Source of the DNA: Pseudomonadota bacterium | Lineage (GTDB): Bacteria; Pseudomonadota; Alphaproteobacteria; Micavibrionales; UBA2020 | Reading direction: 5' to 3' | Assembly (NCBI GenBank): GCA_021845905.1 | Contig: JAJZVA010000006.1 | Span: 74,264 to 138,263 of the forward strand | DNA length: 64,000 nucleotides | Part shown: one piece after another, positions 6,663 through 51,326 of the stretch | Layout: each line of letters begins with the position of its first letter | Numbering within the stretch: the first letter of the stretch is position 1 | Notes under the pieces: model-generated | Told to the model about the DNA's origin: nothing | Seen by the model: the letters and a program-made list of their open reading frames with translations, nothing else | Databases searched by the model: none | Program-made: the position numbers and the translations under genes

Positions 6663-6979
6663 TGGTGCAGGCGGGGGGACTTGAACCCCCACGGGATTGC
6701 TCCCCACGGATTTTCATACCACTTCGGCTTTCGCCGCCACCGTCCGGTGTTCGTGGTCTGGACTATACCTTCGCCATACGGTTTGGATTTCGGCGTTCGC
6801 CTCATCTTCCGCTTAGACGCTGCCCGTCTAGTCTCTACACCTTCCCCTGTTCAGGGGCTTGGCTCGGGATTGCCATGTGAAAGGTTTCCCCGAGTTTGGG
6901 CAGTTCTGCTCCTCGGGTTTCCCACGGGGGCACTCAATTTCGTTCAAGTCCGTTGCGTATACCGTTCCGCCACGCCTGC
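6663..6979 (-). tRNA. tRNA-Leu(UAA) interrupted by a group I intron (exons 6979-6946 and 6714-6663)
   Basis: 5' exon GCAGGCG-TG-GCGGAACGGTATACGC-A-ACGGA-CTT; 3' exon AAAA-TCCGT-GGGGAGCAATCCCGT-GGGGGTTCAAGTCCCCC-CGCCTGC-A-CCA; all stems complementary; spliced length 86 nt. Confidence 0.85.
6715..6945 (-). ncRNA. group I intron (231 nt, no ORF) between U34 and A35
   Basis: Core blocks GGGGAAACC, GGCAATCCCGAGCCAAGCC, GGAAGGTGTAGAGACTAGACGGGCAGC, AAGGTATAGTCCAG, terminal G before AAAATCCGT; resembles cyanobacterial/plastid tRNA-Leu intron (from memory). Confidence 0.8.
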
Positions 6980-7004: not shown

Positions 7005-8207
7005 CTACAAATCTTCATCTTCAAGAAGCGGTTTTTTGGCCTTTTTGCCCTTTTTCTTGCGCCGCGTATTGATGGCGGCGGCATCAAGGCTGGTTTTGAT
7101 GTGCGAGGCGTAGTAATTTTCAATCATTTCCACGCTCGTCCGGCAGTTTTTGGCGATTTGATAAATATCCGCCCCTTCCATGAGGCGTAGGCAGATATAG
7201 GTATGGCGCAGACTGTAGGCCGTGCGCCTGCTCCCTTCCCTGTCGAATTTGAAATCCAACTCATTCAGGATGCGGTTGAACATTTCCCGATGTCCTTTGG
7301 GGAAAAGCCTGTCGGTCGGCTTGGGCTTTGCGTTCATTCTCAGCCTGTCCCTCAGGCGTTTGAAAGGAATGACCGCGCCTGCGGTGCTTTTACAATAACC
7401 GACACCACGCTTGCCGCGTACTTCGATTTCAAGGATTGTCTCGCCCGAGTCCTCGTCCTCGACAATGGTTACGTCCCGAAACTCAAGCCGTGAGGCTTCA
7501 TCGGGACGCAGGCCAGTATTGGCCATGAACAGCACATAGTCGTGCAACTGTGCTGACTCCCAAACCCAGCGTTTGCGCTTGGGTTTTTCCGCGCGTTCGC
7601 GCGTCGCCTGATAAAGGGTTTTATATTCCTCTGGTGAAAACCATGCGCGATGCGAGAGTTTTCCAGTTGTTTTATACGGTTCTGAAAGGTCAGGCAGGTG
7701 TTTCAACCAATCATGGCGCAAGGCTGTTTTCAGCACTTGCCGCAAGGTGACGATTTCTTGGTGCATCGTATTCCGCGCAGGCGGCTTGCCGTTGCGCTCC
7801 ATGCCTGTTTTACGTCGATGGATGCGGTATTCCTGCAAGCGTCCTGCGGTGATTTGAGAAAGCCCCATATCTCCGAAGAAAGGCAACAGGTGGACGGCCA
7901 GACGTTGTTCGTGTCCCTTCACGTATACCTTGTTCCGGTTACCCTCGGTGATAATGGGATATTCTTTCAGGAATTGCTCGGCGGCCTCGTTGAAAGTCTT
8001 CTCCTCGACAAGCTCGCCGCGCTTGTGCTTGCCCCGCAGTTCCAGATACCAGTCCTCGGCAAAGTCCTTGGCTTTGCCAAGGCTCTCCTCATGGGTCGTA
8101 ATGCGGAAGTTTTTCTCATTAAGGAAAGCGGAACACTGCCAATAGCGGCTGTCGTCGCGCTTGTAAACGTGGATACGTCCGTCAAAAATCGTGTGGCTCT
8201 CGGTCAT
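7005..8207 (-). CDS. tyrosine recombinase/integrase
   Basis: FMANTGLRPDEA (Arg box), AYSLRHTYICLRL (HxxR), NCRTSVEMIENYY (Tyr); stop is 25 nt from the tRNA 5' end. Confidence 0.9.
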   Translation of the reverse strand: MTESHTIFDGRIHVYKRDDSRYWQCSAFLNEKNFRITTHEESLGKAKDFAEDWYLELRGKHKRGELVEEKTFNEAAEQFLKEYPIITEGNRNKVYVKGHEQRLAVHLLPFFGDMGLSQITAGRLQEYRIHRRKTGMERNGKPPARNTMHQEIVTLRQVLKTALRHDWLKHLPDLSEPYKTTGKLSHRAWFSPEEYKTLYQATRERAEKPKRKRWVWESAQLHDYVLFMANTGLRPDEASRLEFRDVTIVEDEDSGETILEIEVRGKRGVGYCKSTAGAVIPFKRLRDRLRMNAKPKPTDRLFPKGHREMFNRILNELDFKFDREGSRRTAYSLRHTYICLRLMEGADIYQIAKNCRTSVEMIENYYASHIKTSLDAAAINTRRKKKGKKAKKPLLEDEDL

Positions 8208-8340: not shown

Positions 8341-8402
8341 GATTTTAAGTCCTGTATATGATTTTATAAGCTATTGATTTTATTGACTATTATAGGATTT
8401 TA
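8341..8402. repeat. att core copy 2 followed by a GATTTTA ladder
   Basis: gattttaagtc at 8341-8351; GATTTTA recurs at 8341, 8360, 8376, 8396; 8392-8407 ataggattttaccgtg resembles junction ataggattttaagtcgtg at 51161. Confidence 0.6.
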
Positions 8403-21103: not shown

Positions 21104-24057
21104 GACCGCGCCTCCCCAAGATCGAACGTGCCTTGCGCTGGCCCGATCTTGCCCTGAAAATCAAGCGCCGCCTGTTCGAGGTGGGGGAATTCCTCCGCCA
21201 GAAGATTGTAGACTTGTGCCTCCTGCGCCCATCCCTTCTTTTCGCAGATGTCGTAAAGGCGGTAAGCGAGCGCCCGCGCCGCCTCGGCGTCTTCGGAACT
21301 CATTTCGGCGATCAGCGCGGCGGCGGCGGCGGTGCTGCCATCCGCTGCCTCCAGTACGCGTATCAAATGCTGCGTGCATTCCCAATGCGTAAGAGTGCGG
21401 TCCGTGCTCGGCCGCCAGCCCTCCTGCATCTCAGCACGCTTCAGAAGGCGCGCCACACCTCCCTTAGCATAGAACACGCCGGCATGTTCCAAATCGCCAA
21501 GACCAAGATTGTAAGCGTTCGCCATGCCGATGGCGTCGCCGGACTTGCCCTGCTCCACGCCGAATGCCTGAAACCAGTCGATACAGAAACGTGTCGCTGG
21601 ATCATAATGCGCATCTTCTTCGCCGAGGATTTCCTCTCGCACTTCGTTGATAAGTGCGATGGCTGTGCGCACGGTCATCTCGGAATCATCAGGCTCCAAG
21701 ACCTTCGCGTAGCTGGTGAAAATGCCCATCCCCGGCCCAAGCGCCGACTGCGCCATATCGACCGGCCCGACACCGGCCTCCTTGATCTTCTGGAGAGCAT
21801 TTGGCAGGTCTTGTTTTAAGCGCGCGGCAAATTCCCGACGGGTACTGACCGCAGCGGTCACTGGGCGCTTAGTACAAACAAGGACAATTGATGAGGCCAA
21901 AGCATTTGAGGCTTGTCCTACCATGCGACTCGCGTTTTCCGTTCGCACCGGCCAAGTCCCATCGATTATGTATCCAGCATTAACGACACCCTGTAGAAAA
22001 GAAGCCCATCCAGCCGACGTGAGTCCGTCATCAGCGATCTCGGACTGCTTGAACGCGTAGTAGATGGCAACCGGCACCTCATCTGTCGCCGCCTTGTGTA
22101 TGTTCTTCAGTGCCTTCGAAATGCCCTCCATGAAAAACTGTTCGGCTTTTTCCACAGAGCCGTGGAGGTGACGCGTTGCTACGAGTTCTTCTTCCTTCGG
22201 CGTAAGAGTTCGTCTAAATAAGTCAGGCCAAATCTGTCTTAGTGACGGCCGCAGCCAGTTATAGAAGAAATCGGCGAGAACTGCGTAGCCAATATTATCA
22301 AAATATGGAGGATCAGTACAAAATACGGAATCTGGGTCGAATGTATTTTCCTGCGCGGCCTTATTGGTAATCACTCCCTGAAGGCGATTTGACTGCCAAC
22401 ACAGCGTAGAGGCGAGCGCCTTGCACTGGCCATCCAACACGGTAAGGAAGCTGCCGGACCTTTCTCCTAGAATATTCGACTCTGCAAAGTCCCATACCAT
22501 CGCCATACCCTGTCGCGCAAAGAGCTGACGTGGACATTGAGCAATTGGCTCCCATCTACAAAGGTTGTTGTTGAGGTCAGCAGACTTGTCTATGGCAAAC
22601 GCTACATAGGTAGCGACTGCATCAGCATATGCTTCGGCGCCACGTCCACCGCTTGCCAGCGAAACGTCGTCAGGGGTCAGACCATTTCGTTGAGCGGCGT
22701 TAAGTACATTTGTCCGTAGCTCCTGGATTAAGCCTGATAACGTTGCAAGTGCGATAGTCTGCCGATCTGTGAATAGGTGCCCCCAAGTGCGTAGACCATA
22801 GGCGGAACAAACGCCTCCTGTAATCATCGCTCTGGTTGGTGTTGCTCCAGATAAAAACCGCTCTCTCGCATCGGCGACGACATCTTTCCACTCATCGGCC
22901 AGTGTGGCTCGCTCATGTAGGTTATCCGGTGCGATGTATTGTCTTCCTCCAGGTCCATCTGCAACGACTGCCATTAGTCGAACCGACAGCCTATCTGCTT
23001 TGCCTTCTGTCTGGATGTAACTTCTTGGGATCGGCGCTCCCGAGAGCAAGCAGAGGAAATCTTGTGCTTTACCGGCCTTGGTGCCTAGTTTCTTGTTCTC
23101 CTCTACCTCCTTCGTCAGGTGCCCAGATTTGATCTCAAAACGCCAGCCGTCTTGTGCAGCGGCGTCCCGCACCACCTCGACCCATGCTTGCTTGCCTTTC
23201 TTCGCCGAGAGCATGAATGAAGAAACAAGCGGCACATGCGCACCCTTTGCCATGGGGTCGGGCGAGGCAACCGTGCGCGCCCACAACCATGCGATGACAG
23301 TCGCCTCGCTGCCGTCCGGCAGTGTCGCTTTGGGATAGAGATGCCCGATGCGTTTCTCGGCCTCGCCGCGCATCCATTGGCCGTAATAGCGCATGTCCTC
23401 GGCGAGTCCCTCCGCGCCCTTCCAGGCGCGGTGGGGATCGCGGTCGGGATTTACCGGCGGGCGGCCGGCAAACTTCGGCGGGATTTCCACCAGCGCCTTC
23501 GATATCAGCACTGCCACCGGGTTGAGGTCGGAGCCGTAGGCGCGAAGCCCGAGCCGTTGCGCTTCGAGCGGGATTGAGCCGCCGCCGCAGAACGGGTCAT
23601 AGACCGGCGGAGCTTTCTCTTGCAGATATGCGACAACGGCATCGGCGTCGGATTTCGCCGGCGGTTCCTCGCCCAACCCCCAGGCGACGGAGCGCGCGAT
23701 CTCCCACCGGGCATTGTTGAGAATGTGCGCGTTGGTCGAGGATTCCCACTGCACAAGCCCACCCTCATACCGACCGGTTTTCGGGTTCTTGTGACCTGCG
23801 ATCAGGTCGTGAAGACGCTTTCTTTCCACGTTCTGCGCTTCTTCTGTCGGGAAGCGGTCCGGCCAGGATGACGGGTCATCGACAAGCTGGGCGAACAGGA
23901 CGGCACGACACGCCGCGAGCGGTCGCCGTGCCCACCAGAGATGAAGCGTGGAAGGGTGCCCATGCCGAATGGACTTCTCCCGCGCGCTCGCCTCGTTGAT
24001 GGCTTCGAGCGGGATCGAGACTTCGATGAGCTTTTTTCTTCTTACGGGTCCGCTCAT
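21100..24057 (-). CDS. DUF1156-type DNA methyltransferase
   Basis: N-terminal IEVSIPLEAINEASAREKSIRHGHPSTLHLWWARRP; DPFCGGGSIPLEA (motif I) and TDPPYFDNIGY (motif IV). Confidence 0.8.
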   Translation of the reverse strand: MSGPVRRKKLIEVSIPLEAINEASAREKSIRHGHPSTLHLWWARRPLAACRAVLFAQLVDDPSSWPDRFPTEEAQNVERKRLHDLIAGHKNPKTGRYEGGLVQWESSTNAHILNNARWEIARSVAWGLGEEPPAKSDADAVVAYLQEKAPPVYDPFCGGGSIPLEAQRLGLRAYGSDLNPVAVLISKALVEIPPKFAGRPPVNPDRDPHRAWKGAEGLAEDMRYYGQWMRGEAEKRIGHLYPKATLPDGSEATVIAWLWARTVASPDPMAKGAHVPLVSSFMLSAKKGKQAWVEVVRDAAAQDGWRFEIKSGHLTKEVEENKKLGTKAGKAQDFLCLLSGAPIPRSYIQTEGKADRLSVRLMAVVADGPGGRQYIAPDNLHERATLADEWKDVVADARERFLSGATPTRAMITGGVCSAYGLRTWGHLFTDRQTIALATLSGLIQELRTNVLNAAQRNGLTPDDVSLASGGRGAEAYADAVATYVAFAIDKSADLNNNLCRWEPIAQCPRQLFARQGMAMVWDFAESNILGERSGSFLTVLDGQCKALASTLCWQSNRLQGVITNKAAQENTFDPDSVFCTDPPYFDNIGYAVLADFFYNWLRPSLRQIWPDLFRRTLTPKEEELVATRHLHGSVEKAEQFFMEGISKALKNIHKAATDEVPVAIYYAFKQSEIADDGLTSAGWASFLQGVVNAGYIIDGTWPVRTENASRMVGQASNALASSIVLVCTKRPVTAAVSTRREFAARLKQDLPNALQKIKEAGVGPVDMAQSALGPGMGIFTSYAKVLEPDDSEMTVRTAIALINEVREEILGEEDAHYDPATRFCIDWFQAFGVEQGKSGDAIGMANAYNLGLGDLEHAGVFYAKGGVARLLKRAEMQEGWRPSTDRTLTHWECTQHLIRVLEAADGSTAAAAALIAEMSSEDAEAARALAYRLYDICEKKGWAQEAQVYNLLAEEFPHLEQAALDFQGKIGPAQGTFDLGEARS

Positions 24058-27000
24058 GCCGGCGGCCCCCCTACGGTCAGAATTTTTGTCAGGTTCAAAT
24101 TTCGTGAGACCTCCATGAATCCGGGTTCAGCACCGAAAACGCCGGTGGGGCTTCGCACATAAATGGGCGGCCGGGCGAATCCGGCTTCGACCTGCACGAC
24201 GGCAAGGATGTAGGAAAGCTCGGAGTCTTCGGTGTTGAAAGCCGTCAGCATCTCGTTGCGGGTGACGGTGATGGTATCGGCGGCCTCCGCGCGTCCCTTC
24301 ACCTCAATGAAGATCAGGTCGCCGGTCTTCGCATCGCGGCTTTCGATGTCATAGCCGCGATTTTCGGCGGACACATCGCGCGGGTCGCGCCCAAGTGCGC
24401 GCTCCGCGGCCATGACGGCTTCCATCGCGAGCTGTTCGATTTCTGCGCGGTCTTTTGCGAGTCTGGTTGCCGGACCGGACGGCTCGGAATATTTGGCGAA
24501 CCAGCCGATCGGAACCACCAGCGCCGCGCCCTGTATCTCCGGTGGCAAGGGCGCGATCTGCCGTTCCTTGGCAAGCTCGGAAAGGCGCTTGTCGAGCCGG
24601 TCGGTCAGCATCTCAACATAGCGCCGCGCATTCTGGGAATTAAGGCGTTGCTGCTTGCCGGCTTTCTCCTGCCGTTCGAGTTCGAGCGCCCGATGCTGCC
24701 AATGCAGAATTTCGCGGCGCAGGCGTTCCTTTACGGCCGTCTCGATCTTCTGAATTTCTTGCAGCCGCCGGGACTTAACCTCTTCCAGGTGGTGCGGAAC
24801 GAGTTCCGTGATGGCATATGAACGAACCGCGTCCTCGATGTTGCCGGCGAGCCAATCCTCATGCAGGAGCGGCTCAATCTGCTGTTTCTCGTCTTCCTTA
24901 ACCGGCCGGCAATCGAGATAAGGCGCTGCGCCGCCGTCCATGGCGCTGCCATTGCGGTCGAGATAAACGAATTGAAGGCGCTGCGAGATTACGCGCGGGC
25001 GTCCGTTACGCCCGACACGGCCATCACGAATACCATGTTCCAAATACACGAGGACACGGGGCTGTTCACCGCTATCGTTCTCATCAACCAGGACTGCACC
25101 CTGGCCTAACAGATTGCGATAACGATCCAGCGTCAAATCAACAGTGGCATCCAAGAGCGGGTGGCCGGGCGCGACCAGCATGGCCTGGTGCTTGCCGGGG
25201 ATATCCCCCTTGTCAAAACAGATTCGTTCATAGCGCGGGAGTACAGGATCGCCGCGACCGATGAGCCGGTCGCGGTCCCGGAGGATGGCGGGCACGCGCC
25301 TGACTTCATAGCGACCCTTTTCCCGCGGGCGCATAACGCCGCCGACTAGCGCGAACGCCTCCTCGAAAAACGAGCGGATGTAGCGCGGCTGCAAACGGCG
25401 TGCCTCTGCGCGCTCCATCTCCTCTTTGAGAGTGGTGATGGTGGCGGGATCGAGTCCTTCTTTGGTGAGCTTGCTGCGCGTAACAATCTCGTCGATATGC
25501 TTGCGGTCGATGGCGCCGTCAATCGCTGTGAAAAGTCGCTCGCGCACTTCGGGGCTTTCGCCATAGCGGATTGCTTCCATGAACATGTCGCGGAGCGCGC
25601 GCGCCTCGAACAGCTCGCCGAGCACGTCGTAGACTTTGCCGCCGAGGGTCTCGCGCGCAGTCTCCAGCTTTTCAAGCAGACGGGCATAAACTTCGCCTTC
25701 GCGGGTTTCGCCCGCGATAAGGTTCCAAAGGTGGCATACTTCAGTCTGGCCGATCCTGTGGATACGCCCAAAGCGCTGCTCCAGGCGGTTCGGATTCCAA
25801 GGCAGGTCGTAATTGACCATAAGGTGCGCACCACGTTGCAGATTCACACCTTCGCCAGCGGCGTCATTGGCGATCAGAAAGCGGACCCTCGGATCGTCGT
25901 TGAAAGCGGCGATCGCGGCGCGACGGCGATCGCGCGGCACACCGCCGTGAATGATCGCAACGGCCTCCGCCTCGCCAATTCGCCCGCGAATACGTGTGGC
26001 GAGATATTCCAGGGTATCGCGGGATTCAGTGAAGACGACGATCTTCCGGTGTACATCGTTCGCAGGGTCGTAGACGATGGGATCGTCCAGAATGCGGTCC
26101 AGCTCGCGCCACTTGGTATCTTCCCCCGAACGGCGCAGCACGCGGGCCAGCCCCTCAAGCTCTTTCAGGGACTCAATCTCAGCTTCGAGTTCGGCGATGG
26201 TGCGCGCGGCTGTCGCCTGATCGACAACCTGATCTTCGAGGTTCTCCAATTCGTCCTCGGGGGCCTCATCAACGTCTTCGTCGTCCCAGGTTGGAATGTC
26301 TGTCTTCGTTGACAAAACACCTGCCGCCTCATGGCCGCGCTTGAGCAAGCGCTCCTCCTCAAGGCGGGCTTCGAGCCGCGCAAGGCGCCGCTTCAAGGAT
26401 TCATGGATGGCGGCCGGAGACGATGCGAGCCGTCTTTGGAGAATTTGCAAGGCGAAGCCGACATTATTGCGCCGGCGGTCGCCGCCGTCCTGTATCTGGT
26501 CGGCGCGGTTCATTTCGTCGCGCACGTAACGGGTCACCGCTTCATAGAGCACGGCCTCCCGGTCCGAGAGCTTGTAGGAAACTGTGTAAGCCTTGCGCTC
26601 GGGAAAGAGCGGCGTGCCATCGAAGCGTTTGAGTTCTTCCTTGGTCAGGCGGCGGATCATGTCCGAGATATCGACCTTGTGCGCTCCCTCGCGGAAGCGG
26701 CCCTCAAAGCGGTCGGAGTCCAAGAGCCCCATGAAAAGCTGAAAATCCTCCTCCTTGCCGTTGTGGGGCGTGGCTGTCATGAGGAGAAAGTGGCGCGCAA
26801 GGGAGCCAAGAAGCTGTCCGAGCTGATAGCGCTTGGTGTATTTGACCTCACCGCCGAAGAAGTTGGCGGACATGCGATGGGCTTCGTCGCAGATGATAAG
26901 GTCCCAACCAGGCGCAGCCTTCAGTCGGTCCTGAAGGTCCTGTGCTCGGGACAGCATGTCGAGGCGGGCAATGACTCTCTGGTGTTCGGCGAAGAAATTT

Positions 27001-27575
27001 CCGCTTGCAGAAGCTTCAACCTGATCGCGCGTCAGGATGTCGAAGTCGGTCGAGAACTTATCACGCAGTTCATCTTGCCACTGTTCGACCAGACTTCCAG
27101 GGGCGACGATCAGGCAGCGCTCAAGATCGCCCCTGATGAGAAGCTCCTTGATGAGCAAACCGGCCATGATTGTCTTGCCCGCGCCGGGATCGTCGGCGAG
27201 GAGAAATCGTAGGGGTTGGCGTGGCAGCATGTCCTCGTAGACGGCTGTCAACTGGTGGGGTAATGCCTCGATTTGGGACGAGCGGACCGCGAGGAACGGA
27301 TCGAAAAGGTAAGCGAGCCGAATGCGCAAAGCTTCCGAAGTGAGACGTAACAGATGACCATCACCATCAAAGGCGAAACGGCGCGAAGGGGATGCTAGTT
27401 CCAGCTCCGTCTCGGAAGACCGAAATAGAACGGTCTGTTCGACGCCGCCGGTGGATTTGTAAGTGACCTCGACCGCATCAGGACCGAAGGAGCGCGCGGC
27501 GATAACATCGACGAACTCGCCGCCGGCGATCCCACGTATCCTGCTTCCTGCTACGATCTCTTCCAGCCGCATCAT
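24054..27575 (-). CDS. SNF2-type helicase with C-terminal PD-(D/E)xK (DUF3883-like) nuclease domain
   Basis: DDPGAGKTIMAG, ICDEAHRMS, QRFGRIHRIGQT; C-terminus NRGYDIES...LIFIEVKGR. Confidence 0.8.
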   Translation of the reverse strand: MMRLEEIVAGSRIRGIAGGEFVDVIAARSFGPDAVEVTYKSTGGVEQTVLFRSSETELELASPSRRFAFDGDGHLLRLTSEALRIRLAYLFDPFLAVRSSQIEALPHQLTAVYEDMLPRQPLRFLLADDPGAGKTIMAGLLIKELLIRGDLERCLIVAPGSLVEQWQDELRDKFSTDFDILTRDQVEASASGNFFAEHQRVIARLDMLSRAQDLQDRLKAAPGWDLIICDEAHRMSANFFGGEVKYTKRYQLGQLLGSLARHFLLMTATPHNGKEEDFQLFMGLLDSDRFEGRFREGAHKVDISDMIRRLTKEELKRFDGTPLFPERKAYTVSYKLSDREAVLYEAVTRYVRDEMNRADQIQDGGDRRRNNVGFALQILQRRLASSPAAIHESLKRRLARLEARLEEERLLKRGHEAAGVLSTKTDIPTWDDEDVDEAPEDELENLEDQVVDQATAARTIAELEAEIESLKELEGLARVLRRSGEDTKWRELDRILDDPIVYDPANDVHRKIVVFTESRDTLEYLATRIRGRIGEAEAVAIIHGGVPRDRRRAAIAAFNDDPRVRFLIANDAAGEGVNLQRGAHLMVNYDLPWNPNRLEQRFGRIHRIGQTEVCHLWNLIAGETREGEVYARLLEKLETARETLGGKVYDVLGELFEARALRDMFMEAIRYGESPEVRERLFTAIDGAIDRKHIDEIVTRSKLTKEGLDPATITTLKEEMERAEARRLQPRYIRSFFEEAFALVGGVMRPREKGRYEVRRVPAILRDRDRLIGRGDPVLPRYERICFDKGDIPGKHQAMLVAPGHPLLDATVDLTLDRYRNLLGQGAVLVDENDSGEQPRVLVYLEHGIRDGRVGRNGRPRVISQRLQFVYLDRNGSAMDGGAAPYLDCRPVKEDEKQQIEPLLHEDWLAGNIEDAVRSYAITELVPHHLEEVKSRRLQEIQKIETAVKERLRREILHWQHRALELERQEKAGKQQRLNSQNARRYVEMLTDRLDKRLSELAKERQIAPLPPEIQGAALVVPIGWFAKYSEPSGPATRLAKDRAEIEQLAMEAVMAAERALGRDPRDVSAENRGYDIESRDAKTGDLIFIEVKGRAEAADTITVTRNEMLTAFNTEDSELSYILAVVQVEAGFARPPIYVRSPTGVFGAEPGFMEVSRNLNLTKILTVGGPPA

Positions 27576-37659: not shown

Positions 37660-37713
37660 TCTCCTTGTGTTTGCTTACGCCCCGAAGGGACAGCGCAGCC
37701 AAGGCCGGGCGCG

Positions 37714-37790
37714 AGACGCAGCGTCACACAGGAAAATTGGGGGCGACCTTCAGGGGGAACCAAGGCTTCCTGTTGACGCGGGAAGCGTCT
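37714..37790. promoter_or_regulatory. conserved structured leader element, copy A
   Basis: AGACGC-A-GCGTCA-C-ACAGGAA...CCTTCAGGGGGAACC...TTCCTGT-TGACGC-GGGAA-GCGTCT; homologous copies at 46295 and 48655. Confidence 0.65.
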
Positions 37791-38186
37791 GCGGCTGGCA
37801 CGGTCGCTAGACACTGCCGTTCGGGGGACGGCAAGCACGGAGAGAAGTTGAACCGCCAAAGCGAAGACAGTGCTACACGCTATCGCACGATCAAAACGGC
37901 CTGAAATGCCTCCGCAGCTTTCGCCGTGGCGGCGCGCGACGCAGGAACATTGACCGAAGCTGCGGCGCGCCCGGCGGCGCCGGCGATGGCGGGGGCGGCG
38001 CTGGCGGCGGAGGAGGTTTCGCGAGAAGGCGCTCGATTGCTGCAATCGCCACGGCGATCCTGCGCTGCGCCAATGCCAGCATGCGCAGCATGGTTCCGGT
38101 CAAAAACCGGGAACCCCAATTGGAAAGCGCGGCAACCTTTCTGGTGAGGAAGCGGCTCGGCTTTGATTGCAGGAAGCGCGAACCGC

Positions 38187-41711: not shown

Positions 41712-44700
41712 TCACGTCCTGACCTCTTCCGGCCCGGGAATGTCGGCGGCGACGAGTTGCTTTAGGTCCTCTATTCCTACGTCATGCGCATCCGCCAGCC
41801 TCGTCGCCTGTCGTTCCATGCAGACTTCGAAGAGATTGCGCACCGCGCGACCGTTGCCGAACCCCTTGCCACGCCCTGTATAGAGCGCATGGATAGTTTT
41901 CTTGAGCTTCGGGGGCGCCTTTCCGGTCAGCTCCATGCCGTTCCGGGCACAAAGCCCCCGGAAAATCTCCATCAAGTCTGACGGTTCATAGTCGGGGAAA
42001 TCGATGAACGTCTTGAAGCGCGATTTGAGGCCGGGGTTGCTGTCCACGAAACCCTGCATTTCTTCGCGATAGCCCGCCGCGATGACCACGAGACGGTCCC
42101 GGTAATCCTCCATGAATTTGAGCAGCGCCGTAACGGCCTCGATCCCGAAATCGTTGTTCGAGTCTGACGAAATCAGGCTGTAGGCTTCGTCGATAAACAG
42201 CACGCCGTCCAGGGCCTGCTCCACGGCCTCCGCAACCTTGGGCGCGGTCTGGCCGATATATTCCGCCACCAGATCGCCCCGGCTTACCTCGATACAATGG
42301 CCTTTTTTCAGGACCCCAAGATCGCGATAAATCCGGCCGATGATGCGCGCGACCGTCGTCTTGCCCGTGCCGGGGTTGCCCGTAAAAACCAGATGGTTCG
42401 ACCTCTCGGGCACCGGCAAGCCTGCCTTCCGCCGTGCCTGGTTGACTTTCTCCAGATTGGCGACGGTTTCGACCTGCTTTTTGACGGGCGCGAGACCGGT
42501 CAGTCCGCGCAGGTCCGCGAAGGGGTCTTGCTTCGTCTCGACCGGAGCGGGCGCTGCCGGTTGCTTTTCTCGGGGCGGCTTCGGCGGAGGCGATGACGGT
42601 TGCGGTGGCGGTTGCGGCGGTTTCTGCTGCCCTTTGCTGAAATAAGGATTCTCGTCGTACTGAAGCGGCGGCGCCTTACCCATGTTGTACGGATACATAT
42701 GCTTGAGATGATCGTAGGCACGATCGAGATTCCAGTAGTCGATGGGTCTGAGATACTCCGGCAAACCGCGCGGGTTGAGCAGGATTGCCACGTCCCGCCC
42801 GAGATTGAGAATCTCGTCGGGCATCAGCAGCGGGCGTGCCATCTCGCCGAAGTTGGTGCTTTCCCCGGATGTGGCGCCGCCCTTGGTCTCGCCGGAGGAC
42901 ATGGATGTCGCCACGGTGCGCACGGTCGCCTTGCCGAGGCTCTCGCTGAGATATTTGGCGGTGTCGAGTTCGTTGACGAAACAGAACCACTTGAAGGCGC
43001 AATTGCTGAGGATCGTTCCGCTGGAATCGCCGTAGTGATCCTTGAGCTGGTCGAGCCCCTGCACGATCAGCGTGAAGTCGAGCCCGTAGCCGCTCATCAG
43101 CGCGATATCGCGCGGAATGTCGTCGATGCGCCCGATGGAGCCGAACTCGTCTATCAGGAACATGCAGCGACGGCGCGGCACGCTTGTGGCCTTGTGGCTT
43201 TTCATGCCCTGCATGGCGGAGGCGATGACCAGCCGGAGCCAGGTGGCGTGGGTTTGAATCCGGTCGTGCGGGATGACGAGATAGACGGTGGTCGCTTCCT
43301 CCCGGAGCTTCTTCATCGAAAACGAAGACGAGGCCGTCGATTGCTTGATCTGCGGGTCCGACAGGAACTTGGTGTTCTCTGCCAGGTTCGACATGATCCC
43401 GCTGTAGGTTTCCGGCGCGAGGTCGATGTACTGGCTGACCATCTCGCTGACCGCGCCGTGGTAAGCGGTTGAAGCCGTCATCTTGACCAGAATCTTGAGA
43501 AACTCGGCCCGGCTCATGGTCACGATCTGACGGGCGCGGGCGAGGGTCTTTTGTTCGCCCGGCGCGTCGGCGATCCAGAGAAAGACGCCCGCGAGCACGT
43601 TGGCCGCGCTCCCCTGCCAGAACGACTCCTTGCCTGTCGCGGGCGGGCAGATGATTGCCGCGAGCGATTGGGCGAAGGCGACGGCGTTGGGATCGTTGCG
43701 GTCGAGCGCGTCGAGCGGGTTGAAAGTCGCCCTGGCGAAGCCAAGGCTCCGGTAACGGCTCTCCATTTCTCCCCACGGGTTGACGATATGGACCGTCTGC
43801 TTATGCCGGTTGCGGCGCGTGCGCGCCGTGATCGCCGCGTTCTCGCCTTTGGGGTCGATGACCAGCATCGAGCCTGTGTAATTCAACAAGGTCGGCACGA
43901 TAACGCGGGTGCCCTTGCCCGCCCGCGTGCGGGCCACGATCAGCGTATGTGTTTCCGGCGATGACGTGACGGGGGCGCCGGGAGCATCGGCAGGGATGTC
44001 AGGTCTGCTGCTTTTACCGAAGTTGACGCCCTGGAACATATTCTCCCCGCGACGCTCCACGATCCGATGTTCGGCCCAGTCGGCGGTGCCGTAGTTGTCG
44101 CTCAGCGGCGGAAGGGAATCGTCCGGCTCTTCTTCACGTCTCAACATCAGCCACCCAAAAAACCCGATCACGAACGCGCCGCCACCGTAAACCAGAACGT
44201 AAGCGCTTGCGGTGATCCAGGGATTCGGCTTGACCGAAGACCCCGCGTTCGCGGAAGAAACGGGGTTCTGGCCCCGTCTTTGCGCCTCACTCTCCCAATT
44301 GACCTGCGCCGCCACGTATTCCGGCGCAAAGTAGCGCCCGAGCACGTCACGCATAAAATCCGTGTTGGCGCTGTAGGCGTATTCCTTCTCGAAAAACTGC
44401 GGCCGGATGCAGCTCTTGCCGGAACAATTCCCGTCGTTGAATTTGAGGCCATAGGGTTTCTCGCCGAAGGCGCGGGAGTATTCCCGAAACTTGGCGGCGG
44501 CGCGGGGCGGCATCGACCTGATGTCCAGGGCGCCGGTCCAAACCTGAATCGCGTTGCGGAGGATTTCGAAAGCTGCGGCCTGCCGTGCGGCCGTATCGAT
44601 TTCGTTCGAACCCCGGACGTCCCTGAACACTTGCGCGACCGTGGGAGCATGGGCGATCCATCCGTCGCTCATGGCTGCGGCGCGGCAGGTGGCCGGCACA

Positions 44701-44747
44701 GGAGCAAGCGCCAGAGCGAAAGACAGACAGAGCAGACGAAAGCGCAT
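41712..44747 (-). CDS. VirD4/TraG-type coupling protein fused to a C-terminal CbbX/SpoVK-like AAA+ module
   Basis: Signal-like MRFRLLCLSFALALAPVPATC (start 44747; track start 44855), TM segment, IVARTRAGKGTRVIVPTLL Walker A, Pro-rich linker, then VFTGNPGTGKTTVARIIGRIY...GVLFIDEAYSL. Confidence 0.8.
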   Translation of the reverse strand: MRFRLLCLSFALALAPVPATCRAAAMSDGWIAHAPTVAQVFRDVRGSNEIDTAARQAAAFEILRNAIQVWTGALDIRSMPPRAAAKFREYSRAFGEKPYGLKFNDGNCSGKSCIRPQFFEKEYAYSANTDFMRDVLGRYFAPEYVAAQVNWESEAQRRGQNPVSSANAGSSVKPNPWITASAYVLVYGGGAFVIGFFGWLMLRREEEPDDSLPPLSDNYGTADWAEHRIVERRGENMFQGVNFGKSSRPDIPADAPGAPVTSSPETHTLIVARTRAGKGTRVIVPTLLNYTGSMLVIDPKGENAAITARTRRNRHKQTVHIVNPWGEMESRYRSLGFARATFNPLDALDRNDPNAVAFAQSLAAIICPPATGKESFWQGSAANVLAGVFLWIADAPGEQKTLARARQIVTMSRAEFLKILVKMTASTAYHGAVSEMVSQYIDLAPETYSGIMSNLAENTKFLSDPQIKQSTASSSFSMKKLREEATTVYLVIPHDRIQTHATWLRLVIASAMQGMKSHKATSVPRRRCMFLIDEFGSIGRIDDIPRDIALMSGYGLDFTLIVQGLDQLKDHYGDSSGTILSNCAFKWFCFVNELDTAKYLSESLGKATVRTVATSMSSGETKGGATSGESTNFGEMARPLLMPDEILNLGRDVAILLNPRGLPEYLRPIDYWNLDRAYDHLKHMYPYNMGKAPPLQYDENPYFSKGQQKPPQPPPQPSSPPPKPPREKQPAAPAPVETKQDPFADLRGLTGLAPVKKQVETVANLEKVNQARRKAGLPVPERSNHLVFTGNPGTGKTTVARIIGRIYRDLGVLKKGHCIEVSRGDLVAEYIGQTAPKVAEAVEQALDGVLFIDEAYSLISSDSNNDFGIEAVTALLKFMEDYRDRLVVIAAGYREEMQGFVDSNPGLKSRFKTFIDFPDYEPSDLMEIFRGLCARNGMELTGKAPPKLKKTIHALYTGRGKGFGNGRAVRNLFEVCMERQATRLADAHDVGIEDLKQLVAADIPGPEEVRT

Positions 44748-45173
44748 CTGAATCAGTCCCCGGGGCATCGCCACAGGCGGCTCGATGGCAGACAAGGCCG
44801 AAAGCTCTGTAGTCCGTCCGACGCCAGAAGCGATAGTGCTGCGGAAGTATTGCATACGCCAGTCCCTGAACCTCTGAAAAAAGCGCGTTGGAGACCTGCC
44901 GCTTTGATTGTGTCCGCGCGGTAATGATTCAAATCCATGATCTCCCCCCCTTTTCAGGGAGCCCCGATTCCGGACTTCGATGGTGCAGCGTTAGCACCGG
45001 CGCGCCTTTGGGCGCTGCAAGCTTGTTGCCAAGCTCCTTCTCTTCGTTGCGGTCCACTCATGTTGCGCATGCACAGCATGGTGGATGCAGCTCAAGGCGG
45101 CCGTCGCTCTCCACGGCTGCGTGAAGTCCGCGATCGGCGCGGGCAGAAGAAAAGGAGAGACACCATGAGAGTC

Positions 45174-46294: not shown

Positions 46295-46396
46295 GGGCGC
46301 GGTGTCACACAAGAAAATCGGGGGGAACCTTCAGGGGGAACCGACCCCTGAACGAAGTTCGGGGCCTGTTTTCTTGTTGACGCCAGAAAGCGCCCG
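46295..46396. promoter_or_regulatory. conserved structured leader element, copy B
   Basis: GGGCGC-GGTGTCA-C-ACAAGAAAA...CCTTCAGGGGGAACC...TTTTCTTGT-TGACGCC...GCGCCC; compensatory changes relative to copies A and C. Confidence 0.65.
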
Positions 46397-46512: not shown

Positions 46513-48330
46513 TTACCGGAGGATGTCCGGCAACCAGCCCGTGCCGGCGATTTCACGCTCAGCAAGTGCGGCCAGCTCGGCCTTCTTGAGCTTGTCCCAT
46601 GCGGGCGCAACCGGCTGCTTGCGCGCGTCTGTCAGGGCATCGAGGATTTGCGGTTTGCTGATGCGGCTGAAATATCCCTCGGCCGTCGGGGTGAACCACG
46701 CCTTCATGTCGAGCTTGACCGCGACGGAGAGTTTACTGGCATGGTCCAGTCTCGGGCAGTCCGGACGATCCGTCTTGCGCTGCACGGCATTGACCATGCA
46801 GGCCGCGCAGAATGTCAGGAGATCGAGTAACACGGACTGATCCTGCTCCAGACACCAGTTCCAGAGATCATCCGGAGTACCGGGGATACGTTGGCCCCAG
46901 GATTCACGGGCTCGTTCAAGACGCTGGAAAGCAGTCGAGCCTTCGACAAGATTCAGCGGCTGCGTTTTGCCGGAAAGTTCAAGGGCCGTAGCGTGTCCTT
47001 GATCGAATGTGTCCAGCACAAGGGCGTACACGATCGTGGCAAGACCTTTGTCCGGTGCGTCCAGCAAGGTTGCGGCAAGCGCTGCCGACCTATGGGCGGT
47101 CAGGCTCTCGACCAGCGCCGCCGACAATCCGGGAGTCTCCGCTTCAACGGCTGCGGTATCCGCATCGCCGGGAACGCCAGAGACTTTTGCCTTTTTGGAC
47201 TGTTTCGGCATGTCCTCCGGCTTCACAAAACCGCGCTCGATCTTCACCTTGCCGGCGTGATCGAGGGATACCACGGTGCCCGCGATCGCAAGCTGTTCCG
47301 GCGTCCAGACGCCGTCGCGGTCTTCGATGTCGGCGATGAGCTTCTCCAGCTCGTCGAGACGTTCCGGCGCTTCGCCCGCGTCGGATGCGTACCACGCGTC
47401 ATTCAGGGCGGTGTATTCCGCCTGAAGGCTGTCGAACCGTTGCTGTTCGTCTTCGGTCAGGGGAACGGGCTCGGGATAGATACGCCTGTAAGCGGAACTT
47501 TGCGCGTATCCGAACTCGGGCATGACTTCGATCCATTTCCAGCCCTCGGCGCGGACCGGCTTGGCCTTCTTCTCAAGCTTCTCCGTCACAAGGCTGTCCA
47601 GCAGGGCGGCGTCTTCGATATAGACGCCGTTGTCGTCGTCGCTGAACAGGTCGCGCTTGAGATTGCCACCGGCCTTTTCGTACCCGTTCAGGGTCACGAA
47701 TTTCACGCGCTTGTCGGTTGCGGCGATGTCGTTCTCCGTCAGGGCGTCGCGGATGTCGCGGGCATCGTTGCGTTCGGGGTCGTAATCCGCCAGCACGCGT
47801 TCCTGCGCTTCGTGGTCGTCGGTCACGGCGAAGGCCATGACGCATTCCAGCGTCAGGTCGCCGTCCCGGTACGCCTTGATGATGCTCGGGCTGACACGGG
47901 CCAGTTTCAGGAGCTTCTGGACGTGGGCCTCGCTGCATCCGAAACGGGCGGCAATATCCGCAGCCGGCATACCGTCATCGGTCAGGGAACGGAACGCCTC
48001 GAACTGGTCGGCGGGGTGCATGTCTTCCCGCATGACGTTCTCGGCCAGGCTCAATTCCGTTGCGTTGTCGGCCGCCGTGATGCGGCATGGCACCGGAAAT
48101 GTCGCCTGTAGATCACCGGTCTTGGCGAGTTGCTGCAAGGCTTTCAGGCGTCTGCCGCCGGCGACGACGGCGAACTTCTTGCCGTCCTTGCGGACGACGA
48201 GATTTTGCTGAAGGCCGTGGGCTTTGATGCTGGCGGCCAGCGCGTCGATGCCGTCCTTGTTCCGGATTTTCCGAACGTTGCCGGACCAGACGGTCAGCTT
48301 GTTGAGCGGTACATTTATAATGTCGGTCAT
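46513..48330 (-). CDS. ParB/Srx N-terminal domain protein
   Basis: VPLNKLTVWSGNVRKIRNKDGIDALAASIKAHGLQQNLVV ParB-type N-domain; 605 aa. Confidence 0.75.
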   Translation of the reverse strand: MTDIINVPLNKLTVWSGNVRKIRNKDGIDALAASIKAHGLQQNLVVRKDGKKFAVVAGGRRLKALQQLAKTGDLQATFPVPCRITAADNATELSLAENVMREDMHPADQFEAFRSLTDDGMPAADIAARFGCSEAHVQKLLKLARVSPSIIKAYRDGDLTLECVMAFAVTDDHEAQERVLADYDPERNDARDIRDALTENDIAATDKRVKFVTLNGYEKAGGNLKRDLFSDDDNGVYIEDAALLDSLVTEKLEKKAKPVRAEGWKWIEVMPEFGYAQSSAYRRIYPEPVPLTEDEQQRFDSLQAEYTALNDAWYASDAGEAPERLDELEKLIADIEDRDGVWTPEQLAIAGTVVSLDHAGKVKIERGFVKPEDMPKQSKKAKVSGVPGDADTAAVEAETPGLSAALVESLTAHRSAALAATLLDAPDKGLATIVYALVLDTFDQGHATALELSGKTQPLNLVEGSTAFQRLERARESWGQRIPGTPDDLWNWCLEQDQSVLLDLLTFCAACMVNAVQRKTDRPDCPRLDHASKLSVAVKLDMKAWFTPTAEGYFSRISKPQILDALTDARKQPVAPAWDKLKKAELAALAEREIAGTGWLPDILR

Positions 48331-48596: not shown

Positions 48597-48654
48597 TTTA
48601 GTCTCCTTCGTTTGCATTACCCTTTCGGGCGATGCCTCCGATCAGCCAGCAGCG

Positions 48655-48730
48655 GATGCAGCGTCACACAGGAAAATTGGGGGAGACCTTTAGGGGGAAC
48701 CGAGGCTTCCTGTTGACGCGGGAAGCGGCC
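48655..48730. promoter_or_regulatory. conserved structured leader element, copy C
   Basis: GCGTCA-C-ACAGGAA...CCTTTAGGGGGAACC...TTCCTGT-TGACGC; near-identical to copy A. Confidence 0.65.
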
Positions 48731-49244
48731 GCGCATGGCAGGGGGCTCGAACATGCACGAAGGGTGGATGCAAATAGCGGAAGGAGATGATGTGCTGACA
48801 ACGCCGGAGAACCACGGCTCGCAAACAGGAACGCGTCATCATTCCTGAGAAGAACGGACGCGCGGAAAAGACCGTTTGATCACCCGTTCGCTCCACCACG
48901 GCAGATTAGGTGAACCGATCCCGTAGATCGCATCCGTCAACGTTGCGGCCTCCGGCAAGCAGCCGCGCAACCTCGTTTGGATACGGAAGGGAATGTCGAT
49001 AACGGGTGTGCTCACACTTCCGAAAGGAAAGCTCGGCGGCGCCCCCACAGCGCAACGCCCGAGCTGCTGATTGTCAAATGAGGAAAATGTCGAACCCGGG
49101 AATCGTCCGATCCGTGTTCGACGCGGCACGCGCAACGGTCCCGTAGCTTTATCGTGCCTGTCGCCGTTAGGCCGTTCGGCCCGGCTCCGGAGCGCCGTCC
49201 AGCGCTCCCGACAACTTGAAGATTCTCAAGCAGGGAAAGGAAGA

Positions 49245-49558
49245 TGGTGCGGGCGGCCGGACTTGAACCGGCACAGGCCTTTCGGCCCTACGGATTTTCA
49301 TACCACTACGGCTTTCGCCGCGTTCGCCGCTGCGCCTCTCGGCACAGGACGCTTTGTGGTCTGGACTATCCCTTCACCATAGCCGTTGCTTTAGGTGCTG
49401 CCCGTCTAGTCTCTACACCTTCCCGTTTCCGGGCTTGGCTCGGGATTGCCATGTGAAAGGTTTCCCCGACTTTGAGCAGTTCTGCATCGCGGGTTTCCCC
49501 GCGCGCACTCAATTTTCTGGTTTAAGTCCGTTGCGTCTACCAATTTCGCCACGCCCGC
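49245..49558 (-). tRNA. tRNA-Leu(UAA) interrupted by a group I intron (exons 49558-49524 and 49298-49245)
   Basis: 5' exon GCGGGCG-TG-GCGAAATTGGTAGACGC-A-ACGGA-CTT; 3' exon AAAA-TCCGT-AGGGCCGAAAGGCCTGT-GCCGGTTCAAGTCCGGC-CGCCCGC-A-CCA. Confidence 0.85.
49299..49523 (-). ncRNA. group I intron (225 nt, no ORF) between U34 and A35
   Basis: Shares TCGGGGAAACCTTTCACATGGCAATCCCGAGCCAAGCCC and GGGAAGGTGTAGAGACTAGACGGGCAGC with the 6715-6945 intron; GAAGGGATAGTCCAG; ends ...GGTATG. Confidence 0.8.
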
Positions 49559-49746
49559 GTGGTACATCCACCTATAGCCGCAACCCACTTAACAACCAAG
49601 AAAAATCGAGCATTTCTGCGGATTCCGGCATTACGGAAAGGCAGGGTAGCAGCCTTCGCCGCCTGAGGTTTTGGCTAGCATAACACAATAGGAGTCGTAC
49701 CTGCTCGGCGCGCAGACGCCGATGCGGCACGCCTGTACGCGTCCGC

Positions 49747-51069
49747 CTATCTTGCCTTTGGGGGCGGAGTCCGCGGTCGCGGCTTGCGCACGTTTATGGC
49801 TCCGGCATCGATGCTGTCTTTGATGTGAGAGGCGTAATACTTCTCGATCATCTCGACACTGGTACGGCAGTTTTTCGCGATCTGATAGATGTCGGCGCCT
49901 TCCATGAGCCTCAAGCTGATATAGGTATGACGGAGGCTATAGGCGGTTCGCTCGTTGCCCTCCCGGTCTGTCTTGAGATCGAGTTCGTTCAAAATGTCTC
50001 TAAACAATTGCCTGTGCGTTTTCGGGAACACCAGGTCCGTCGGTTTCGGAAGGACGGTTGTTGTGTCCGGCTCCTCGTTCGATGCGCCTGACGAAGAAGA
50101 TGATCGAAGGCTTTCGCTCATCTTTGCCGGACGCCGGCGCTTCTCCAAGCGCCTGAAGGGCTCTACTGCGCCAGGCATGCTTTTGCAGTAGCCGACACCA
50201 CGCTTGCCGCGAACGGTGATGACAAGAATGTCGTCTTTGCCGTTTTTGGCGCTTCCGGACTCGATTTCCACGTCCCGAAACTGAAGCCGCAGCGCTTCGT
50301 CGGGCCGCAGTCCGGTGTTCGCCATGAACAGCACAAAGTCATGGAGTTGCTCGCACGACCACTTCCAGCGCGGCTTTGGAGGATTCTTGGCGCGCGTTCC
50401 CGTTGCCGTATAGAGCTGCCTGTACTCTTCCGCAGAGAACCAGGCGCGATGGGATACCTTGGATGAGGATTGGTATGGCGCGGATAGATTGGGAAGATGG
50501 TCAAGCCACCCCTGCCGATTTGCAGTTTTCAGTATCTGACGGAGGCAGACTATTTCCTGATGGAGGGCGCTGCGCGATGGAGGCTTTTGCCTTTCAAAGC
50601 CCTTGGACGAACCGTTCTTCTTGATATGCGCCGCAAGCTTGTGTTGGTCCGTACGGGACATTCCCGTCTTCATGCGGTGTATGCGGTAGTCCTGAACCTT
50701 GCCTGCCGTTATATCGCTGAGAACCAAATTGCCGAAGAACGGATTCAGATGGTTGTTGATCCTGTCCTTGTGGCAGGCGACATATACCTCGCTTCTCTGC
50801 CCTTCGGTAATGGTCTCGAATTCATCGATGAAGCGTTCGGCTGCTTCCCGGAAGGTCTTCCCTTCCTTCAACTCGCCGGCTCGATATTTTCCCAGGAGGC
50901 TTAGGTACCAGTCTCGGGCTACATCCTTTGCGCGGGCGAGGCTTTCTTCTCTCGTCGTGGTGCGCCGCTGGCGTCCGGCCACTGAACACGAGCACTGCCA
51001 ATGCGGACTGTTCTTCCGCATGTAGAGCTGGACGCGATTGTCCATAAGGGAGTGGCGGGTGGTGTCCAT
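49747..51069 (-). CDS. tyrosine recombinase/integrase
   Basis: Homologous over its length to 7005..8207 (FMANTGLRPDEA, AYSLRHTYISLRLMEGADIYQIAKNCRTSVEMIEKYY) with a Ser-rich insertion. Confidence 0.9.
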   Translation of the reverse strand: MDTTRHSLMDNRVQLYMRKNSPHWQCSCSVAGRQRRTTTREESLARAKDVARDWYLSLLGKYRAGELKEGKTFREAAERFIDEFETITEGQRSEVYVACHKDRINNHLNPFFGNLVLSDITAGKVQDYRIHRMKTGMSRTDQHKLAAHIKKNGSSKGFERQKPPSRSALHQEIVCLRQILKTANRQGWLDHLPNLSAPYQSSSKVSHRAWFSAEEYRQLYTATGTRAKNPPKPRWKWSCEQLHDFVLFMANTGLRPDEALRLQFRDVEIESGSAKNGKDDILVITVRGKRGVGYCKSMPGAVEPFRRLEKRRRPAKMSESLRSSSSSGASNEEPDTTTVLPKPTDLVFPKTHRQLFRDILNELDLKTDREGNERTAYSLRHTYISLRLMEGADIYQIAKNCRTSVEMIEKYYASHIKDSIDAGAINVRKPRPRTPPPKAR

Positions 51070-51110: not shown

Positions 51111-51163
51111 AGTATCTATAGCGCCAAATGCCTGAATATACAAGGAAATATTATTTTACATAG

Positions 51164-51204
51164 GATTTTAAGTCGTGTGCGTCTACCAGTTCCGCCACAG
51201 GGCC
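51164..51204 (-). tRNA. 5' part of the resident tRNA-Leu(UAA), ending in att core copy 3
   Basis: Minus strand GGCCCTG-TG-GCGGAACTGGTAGACGC-A-CACGA-CTTAAAA-TC, then CTATGTAAAATAAT (no tRNA 3' half). Confidence 0.85.
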
Positions 51205-51326
51205 CTGCTTTATAAACCGTCTCCAGAAATTACGTGAACACCCAAAGATATTCAAGGTTTTAACGATATTTTCACCTTTCCTGCATATTATGGATACATA
51301 ACATTTGCACTTCAACACGGGAGAAA

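What the first reader, a model, noticed from the sequence alone, without database searches (positions are those of the whole stretch)
49245..51069. Second, diverged integrase + intron-tRNA-Leu(UAA) module on the large element
The large element has the same arrangement: integrase, then 188 nt, then tRNA-Leu(UAA) with a 225-nt intron at the identical U34/A35 position.
- The exons differ from the other copy by compensatory pairs. The acceptor is GCGGGCG/CGCCCGC versus GCAGGCG/CGCCTGC, and the T stem is GCCGG/CCGGC versus GGGGG/CCCCC.
- An intron hairpin also covaries (CCCG-GAAA-CGGG versus CCCC-TGAACA-GGGG), while the catalytic-core blocks are identical.

This pattern indicates that both tRNAs and both introns are under selection for structure. 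It also argues that the integrase/tRNA linkage is an inherited module rather than a coincidence.
Basis: seen in the sequence. Interest (0 to 1): 0.85.

Follow-up and report, generated by a model that had tools for sequence, protein, structure and literature searches.

The report
Integrase islands at intron-bearing tRNA-Leu genes
In this alphaproteobacterial genome, two copies of a leucine tRNA gene that carries a self-splicing intron each sit next to a related 'integrase' enzyme gene. The same pairing recurs in about 60 bacteria from at least six phyla because this integrase family inserts its small mobile element into leucine tRNA genes; the tRNA and intron are the landing site, not cargo that the integrase carries.

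Summary
At window 49245-49558 (- strand) there is a tRNA-Leu(UAA) gene with a 225-nt group I intron after U34. It lies 188 nt beyond the stop codon of a 440-aa tyrosine integrase (49747-51069, -). A paralogous arrangement sits at 6663-6979 (231-nt intron), 25 nt past a 400-aa integrase (7005-8207) that is 57% identical. These are the genome's only two tRNA-Leu(UAA) genes. Across 44 related tRNA+intron units, 43 of 82 consensus pairs change on both sides.

The integrase/tRNA linkage is also real: about 70 of 80 homologous integrases from ≥6 phyla sit just upstream of a tRNA-Leu gene. But it is explained by site-specific integration, not by a co-inherited functional module. In nearly every locus, a 38-40-nt tRNA-Leu 5' fragment (acceptor through anticodon loop, always without the intron) lies 110-170 nt upstream of the integrase start. 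The integrase is therefore flanked by a tRNA-Leu 5'-half direct repeat: the signature of a small (~1.6-2.5 kb) integrative element inserted into the tRNA gene (Islander's 5'-fragment configuration). Pairing analyses suggest the working tRNA, with its intron, belongs to the chromosome. Whether the element itself ever delivers the intron is unresolved.

The parts
49245..49558 (-). tRNA-Leu(UAA) gene interrupted by a group I intron (regenerated target tRNA at the attR-side junction)
   Evidence: ARAGORN -i; Rfam Intron_gpI; cloverleaf and covariation
49299..49523 (-). 225-nt group I intron (Leu.3Ug site, after U34; omega G at 49299)
   Evidence: sequence; A1 alignment; Rfam
49559..49746 (-). 188-nt spacer between integrase stop and tRNA 5' end (element arm next to attR)
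   Evidence: the ORF listing; sequence
49747..51069 (-). 440-aa tyrosine integrase (Phage_int_SAM_3 + Phage_integrase); the element's only gene here
   Evidence: Pfam; homologs; 95% to G006 homolog
51163..51205 (-). displaced tRNA-Leu 5' fragment (acceptor to anticodon loop ...CTTAAAATCC, no intron) marking the attL-side end of the inserted element; shared region with close relative G006 begins exactly here
   Evidence: alignment; pattern; boundary
6663..6979 (-). second tRNA-Leu(UAA) gene with 231-nt group I intron (paralogous target)
   Evidence: ARAGORN; Rfam; A1
7005..8207 (-). 400-aa paralogous tyrosine integrase (57% identical to 49747-51069)
8341..8352 (-). 12-nt anticodon-region core (GGACTTAAAATC) ~145 nt upstream of the 6k integrase, the only remnant of a 5' fragment at this end

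Best explanation
Both modules are insertions of a small integrative element of one tyrosine-integrase family that targets tRNA-Leu genes. The element's attachment site carries a copy of a tRNA-Leu 5' half (acceptor to anticodon loop, without the intron).

The integrase recombines this with the 5' part of a chromosomal tRNA-Leu gene. This leaves three things in a row: a displaced tRNA-Leu 5' fragment on one side, the integrase gene (sometimes with one small extra ORF) in the middle, and a complete working tRNA-Leu on the other side.

In this genome, and in most relatives whose target is tRNA-Leu(UAA), that tRNA carries a self-splicing Leu.3Ug group I intron. Most likely the intron already belonged to the chromosomal target gene (shown: the working tRNA's stems and acceptor are co-adapted and the fragment's are not; inferred: crossover 5' of the anticodon stem). 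So integrase-tRNA co-occurrence is target-site linkage.

The compensatory changes are ordinary selection on a tRNA that must fold and be spliced (the genome's only UUA decoder) and on a group I ribozyme that must self-splice. Shown: architecture, conservation, covariation. Inferred: exact crossover position and the intron's chromosomal origin.
For: 1) A tRNA-Leu 5' fragment lies 110-170 nt upstream of the integrase start in nearly all ~60 loci and in this genome at both Leu(UAA) sites and at a tRNA-Leu(CAA) site on contig C8. This is the classic tDNA-fragment/island signature (Islander, PMC4383910, which lists 5'-fragment islands and anticodon-centred att sites).
2) The anticodon loop of the fragment always matches its own target (CAA vs UAA, 37/37 loci), and fragment and tRNA are identical over the D-arm and loop.
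3) Integrase lineage weakly tracks target isoacceptor (Mantel r=0.12, p=0.006; 52/59 nearest neighbours share type).
4) The working tRNAs are paired in the anticodon stem (41/46) and acceptor (45/47). Fragment 5' strands pair with the working tRNA's 3' strands much less often (12/35; 14/23), and the differences fall at naturally variable tRNA positions, not spread as in drift. This favours a fragment partly derived from the element, and a working tRNA whose two halves share one source.
5) Shared DNA with close relative G006 begins exactly at the fragment's 5' end.
6) An intron-bearing tRNA-Leu(UAA) occurs without any integrase within ±7 kb in same-genus G001, and one with only a deleted integrase remnant in G004.
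7) Massive covariation across 44 units.
Against: 1) Introns sort by phylum less well than integrases: 8 vs 4 minimum label changes on quick ML trees. Intron distance correlates with integrase distance (Mantel r=0.28, p<0.001) but not with crude host class. Cross-phylum intron pairs are 80-86% identical. This pattern would suit an intron carried by the element.
2) In same-genus genome G003, and in two other genera, without the element, tRNA-Leu(UAA) is intronless.
3) No single-crossover model fits every pairing datum at the 49k locus. Its fragment's acceptor does not pair with the tRNA's 3' acceptor, and the 6k locus has only a 12-nt core remnant.
4) The crossover position was not determined experimentally.
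Confidence: 0.65

Rival explanations
1. Intron-delivering element: the element's attP carries a tRNA-Leu 5' half plus the group I intron, and the crossover lies just 3' of the intron (A35-A38). Integration into an intronless tRNA-Leu(UAA) would then create an intron-containing gene, so group I introns spread by site-specific recombination instead of homing endonucleases. Later loss of the integrase by recombination between the two 5'-half repeats would leave the intron behind.
For: - Fragments are always intronless while the working tRNA carries the intron.
- Intron relatedness tracks integrase relatedness, not host class. Introns switch phyla more often than integrases on trees.
- Sister genome G003 without the element has an intronless tRNA-Leu(UAA).
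- The introns lack any homing endonuclease ORF (200-270 nt).
Against: - This model needs the fragment's stems to pair with the working tRNA's 3' half. They often do not, while the working tRNA always pairs.
- Same-genus G001 has a clean intron-tRNA with no element.
- Integrases targeting intronless tRNA-Leu(CAA) belong to the same family.
- Intron-phylum switches rest largely on weakly supported nodes.
Confidence: 0.2
2. One reading: the integrase and the intron-tRNA form a functionally co-inherited module, a unit kept together because the tRNA/intron is needed by, or regulates, the integrase, rather than because of integration geometry.
For: - Conserved adjacency and orientation across ~70 loci.
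- Spacers are short (25-190 nt).
Against: - The upstream 5' fragment repeat shows the tRNA is the insertion site. Islands at tRNA genes normally keep their integrase next to the target.
- The same integrase family also sits next to intronless tRNA-Leu(CAA)/(UAG).
Confidence: 0.1
3. The whole tRNA-Leu(UAA)+intron locus, integrase included, moves between genomes by homologous recombination or inside larger mobile regions (e.g. the ICE that abuts the 49k module here), which explains cross-phylum intron similarity without the integrase delivering the intron.
For: - An ICE (VirD4/TraG coupling protein, ParB, defence-like genes) lies directly downstream of the 49k tRNA.
- Horizontal transfer of whole trnL loci has been described in Nostoc (Rudi et al. 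2002, cited in PMC3984707).
Against: - The ICE boundary is 200-550 nt past the tRNA and is absent in relatives carrying the same module.
- There is no direct evidence of whole-locus transfer here.
Confidence: 0.15

Closest known systems
tRNA/tmRNA-targeting tyrosine-integrase genomic islands (Islander; Williams 2002 sublocation classes)
   Same: Integrase gene next to a tDNA; a tDNA fragment repeat marks the other island end; attP carries a tRNA segment, so integration keeps a working tRNA. Anticodon-centred att sites are common (PMC4383910).
   Different: Here it is the rarer 5'-fragment configuration (about 4% of Islander islands). The islands are minimal (integrase ± one ~230-aa ORF, ~1.6-2.5 kb). 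The targets are tRNA-Leu (UAA, CAA, UAG), and the UAA targets usually carry a group I intron inside the repeat region.
Classical Leu.3Ug group I intron of tRNA-Leu(UAA) (cyanobacteria and plastids, subgroup IC3)
   Same: Same insertion site (CUU/…/AAAA, after U34), similar size (~200-270 nt), conserved catalytic core, no endonuclease ORF.
   Different: Found here in Alphaproteobacteria, Acidobacteria, Binatota, Nitrospinota and Planctomycetes, always at tRNA-Leu genes flanked by integrase islands. Homology to the cyanobacterial trnL intron itself was not tested.
SSV/archaeal-type integrases that insert at tRNA anticodon regions
   Same: Crossover region within the tRNA 5' half or anticodon region.
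   Different: The integrase gene is not split by integration; this is a bacterial family.

Membership tests
tDNA-targeting tyrosine-integrase island | tyrosine recombinase gene adjacent to the tDNA | tested here: met
   Pfam Phage_int_SAM + Phage_integrase; adjacent to tRNA-Leu in ~70/80 relatives
tDNA-targeting tyrosine-integrase island | tDNA fragment at the other end of the island, in correct orientation (5' fragment upstream of the tDNA) | tested here: met
   5' fragment 110-170 nt upstream of integrase, same strand, in ~60 loci and in this genome
tDNA-targeting tyrosine-integrase island | excision/integration activity at that site (circular form, attB/attP recombination) | not testable with these tools
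   would need excision PCR or an in vitro recombination assay
tDNA-targeting tyrosine-integrase island | island length ≥2 kb with cargo (Islander's length filter) | tested here: inconclusive
   Most elements are ~1.6-2.5 kb with only the integrase; some carry a 233-aa ORF (G006 L095:3042-3743, no Pfam hit) or larger spacers (L058)
Leu.3Ug group I intron in tRNA-Leu(UAA) | intron after U34 with U(-1) and omega G, catalytic core | tested here: met
   CTT|intron|AAAA, omega G at 49299; Rfam Intron_gpI; conserved core blocks
Leu.3Ug group I intron in tRNA-Leu(UAA) | self-splicing and tRNA maturation in vivo | not testable with these tools
   needs RT-PCR/in vitro splicing
Mobile group I intron (homing) | homing endonuclease ORF in or near the intron | tested here: not met
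   introns are 200-270 nt with no ORF

The most novel reading that the evidence does not exclude
This integrase family acts as a vehicle for group I introns. Its attP carries a tRNA-Leu 5' half plus intron, and integration into intronless tRNA-Leu(UAA) genes installs the intron. This would be a homing-endonuclease-free spread of group I introns by site-specific recombination across bacterial phyla.
Probability: 0.2. Interest if true: 0.8.

Novelty: new member of a known kind. Interest (0 to 1): 0.4.

Why it matters
Mostly this is a clean case of a known phenomenon: integrative elements whose target is a tRNA gene, here tRNA-Leu. Both of the genome's UUA-decoding tRNAs sit at such insertion sites. 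The less usual features are:
- the 5'-fragment configuration;
- elements that are close to integrase-only;
- the repeated co-occurrence with Leu.3Ug group I introns across at least six phyla.

If the rival reading were true, it would give bacterial group I introns a mobility route without homing endonucleases. That would bear on the long-standing question of how tRNA introns spread horizontally. It would also mean that a selfish integrase can carry a ribozyme into an essential tRNA.

Tried and rejected
- Cyanobacterial host (suggested by the classical cyanobacterial trnL intron): rejected. The genome is an alphaproteobacterium (16S at C11:236700-238180; my reading of 16S signature motifs is an inference). 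A 95%-identical locus is in a Stellaceae MAG.
- A model with the crossover 3' of the intron (element carries the intron) tested against stem pairing. It predicts fragment stems paired with the working tRNA's 3' strand; observed only 12/35 anticodon stems and 14/23 acceptors, with differences at naturally variable positions, so it is disfavoured but not excluded.
- Mantel intron vs host used crude class labels. The tree test shows introns do carry phylum signal (8 changes vs shuffled 15.7), so 'intron ignores host' was overstated and is reported with that caveat.
- NCBIfam gave no name for the integrase. Pfam found nothing on the 233-aa cargo ORF.
- A literature search for this integrase family found nothing specific.
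- Plain ARAGORN missed the intron-tRNAs. ARAGORN -i mislabels several relatives' intron tRNA-Leu as Ser(AGA/GGA) or Phe(AAA) because of misplaced intron boundaries.

Full report
Identity of the window and genome. The window is contig C4:74264-138263 of a 2.42-Mb, 26-contig, 57.8% GC genome. Its 16S rRNA (C11:236700-238180) reads as alphaproteobacterial by its signature motifs (my inference). The closest outside locus (95% identical) is in a Stellaceae MAG (L014).

Observation check. Plain ARAGORN found no tRNAs in the window. With intron search on, the genome's only two tRNA-Leu(UAA) genes appear:
- window 49245-49558 (-), intron 225 nt (49299-49523);
- window 6663-6979 (-), intron 231 nt.
Both introns sit at CTT|…|AAAA, the classical Leu.3Ug site described by Williams (bioRxiv 10.1101/2020.01.27.920355). 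Rfam Intron_gpI confirms both introns. The integrases are 440 aa (49747-51069) and 400 aa (7005-8207). They share 57% identity and carry weak Phage_int_SAM/Phage_integrase hits. The gap to the tRNA is 188 nt at 49k and 25 nt at 6k. The cited compensatory pairs are exactly as described (A1).

Across 44 tRNA+intron units from relatives (A2), RNAalifold recovers:
- the cloverleaf, including the anticodon stem pairing across the intron;
- the intron helices, with 43 of 82 pairs showing double changes.
So the covariation is real and strong, but it is what a working tRNA and a self-splicing ribozyme are expected to show.

Is the linkage real? A search of GTDB genomes with the 49k integrase returned 80 loci from Alphaproteobacteria, Acidobacteriota, Binatota, Nitrospinota, Planctomycetota and Deltaproteobacteria. 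ARAGORN finds a tRNA right downstream, on the same strand, in about 70 of them:
- mostly tRNA-Leu(UAA) with a 200-270-nt intron (Ser/Phe calls are mis-split Leu tRNAs);
- otherwise intronless tRNA-Leu(CAA) or (UAG).
The tRNA+intron unit is conserved at 77-87% DNA identity while the flanks are not. In this genome a third instance sits at tRNA-Leu(CAA) on C8, and there is a degraded one at tRNA-Leu(TAG) on C26.

What the linkage means. About 130 nt upstream of the 49k integrase start (51163-51205) lies a tRNA-Leu 5' fragment. It runs from the acceptor to the anticodon loop (…CTTAAAATCC), is intronless, and then diverges. The same arrangement occurs in nearly every relative and at C8. Each integrase is thus flanked by a tRNA-Leu 5'-half direct repeat, which is the signature of site-specific integration into a tDNA. 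This is the 5'-fragment configuration catalogued by Islander (PMC4383910: 159 of 3919 islands; anticodon-centred att sites are common).

The inserted element is small: the integrase plus short arms, sometimes with a 233-aa ORF of no known family (G006 and L014). So the tRNA is the landing site, and adjacency follows from the insertion.

Consistent with target specificity:
- the fragment's anticodon loop always matches its target (CAA vs UAA; 37/37 identical at positions 31-38);
- integrase lineage weakly tracks target type.

Where is the crossover, and whose is the intron? Fragment and working tRNA are identical in the D-arm and anticodon loop, but differ at the acceptor (positions 4-6) and the anticodon stem (positions 27-29). 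The working tRNAs are nearly always fully paired: anticodon stem 41/46, acceptor 45/47. The fragments' 5' strands pair with those tRNAs' 3' strands much less often: 12/35 and 14/23. This favours a fragment largely derived from the element and a working tRNA whose halves (and intron) are the chromosome's own. In the close relative G006, identity with our locus starts exactly at the fragment's 5' end.

The same-genus genomes give a mixed picture:
- G001 has an intron-bearing tRNA-Leu(UAA) with no integrase within ±7 kb;
- G004 keeps the intron-tRNA but has lost most of the integrase;
- G003 has an intronless tRNA-Leu(UAA) and no element.

Against a purely chromosomal intron:
- intron distances correlate with integrase distances (Mantel r=0.28, p<0.001) but not with crude host class;
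- cross-phylum intron pairs are 80-86% identical;
- on quick ML trees introns need 8 phylum changes against 4 for integrases, though mostly on weakly supported nodes.
The intron's origin (chromosomal target feature vs delivered by the element) therefore remains open. I rate delivery at about 0.2.

Context. Between the two modules lies an integrative conjugative element: VirD4/TraG coupling protein at 41712-44855, ParB at 46513-48330. It also carries defence-like genes: DUF499+HEPN, DUF1156, an SNF2 helicase, an OLD-like AAA/TOPRIM protein, UvrD and RNase T. Its boundary is 200-550 nt past the 49k tRNA and is absent in G006. The 6k module's fragment end is reduced to a 12-nt core (8341-8352) next to the ICE body; this is unexplained (notebook).

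Verdict. The selection-for-structure reading is correct but expected. The 'module' is best explained as a family of tRNA-Leu-targeting tyrosine-integrase mini-islands: a new member, and arguably a new variant, of a known kind. The intron-delivery reading is not excluded and would be notable.

Noticed in passing
window 8894-48330: An integrative conjugative element with a VirD4/TraG coupling protein (41712-44855) and ParB (46513-48330). It also carries defence-like genes: DUF499+HEPN (17807-21103), DUF1156 (21100-24057), an SNF2/ResIII helicase (24054-27575), an OLD-like AAA+TOPRIM protein (15897-17768), UvrD (14093-15910) and RNase T (8894-10135).
   Followed up: partly
window 8341-8352 (-): At the 6k module, the upstream 'fragment' is only a 12-nt anticodon-region core (GGACTTAAAATC) with non-tRNA sequence around it, unlike the 40-nt 5' halves elsewhere.
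   Followed up: partly
G006 locus L095:3042-3743 (-); also L014: A 233-aa ORF with no Pfam or NCBIfam hit inserted between the integrase and the tRNA in two close relatives; possible element cargo.
   Followed up: partly
genome C25 ~126929-128146: An integrase homolog (45-54% identical) next to tRNA-Met(CAT), with no tRNA-Leu fragment found.
   Followed up: no
genome-wide ARAGORN -i: ARAGORN intron mode also reports 'introns' in tRNA-Arg(TCG) (2365 nt), Trp, Ala, Pro, Ile and His; most are likely spurious.
   Followed up: no
window 37711-37800 / 46298-46342 / 48652-48740: A short repeated segment (90 nt at 90% identity) recurring three times inside the ICE.
   Followed up: no
relatives L001, L002, L004, L034, L037, L045, L047, L053, L057, L070: ARAGORN labels intron-containing tRNA-Leu genes as Ser(AGA/GGA) or Phe(AAA) because it places the intron boundary wrongly (9-nt loops after 'splicing').
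   Followed up: yes
window 49245-49558 and 6663-6979: These are the genome's only tRNA-Leu(UAA) genes, and both are intron-containing and sit at integrase insertion sites. UUA decoding therefore depends on correct splicing at island junctions.
   Followed up: partly
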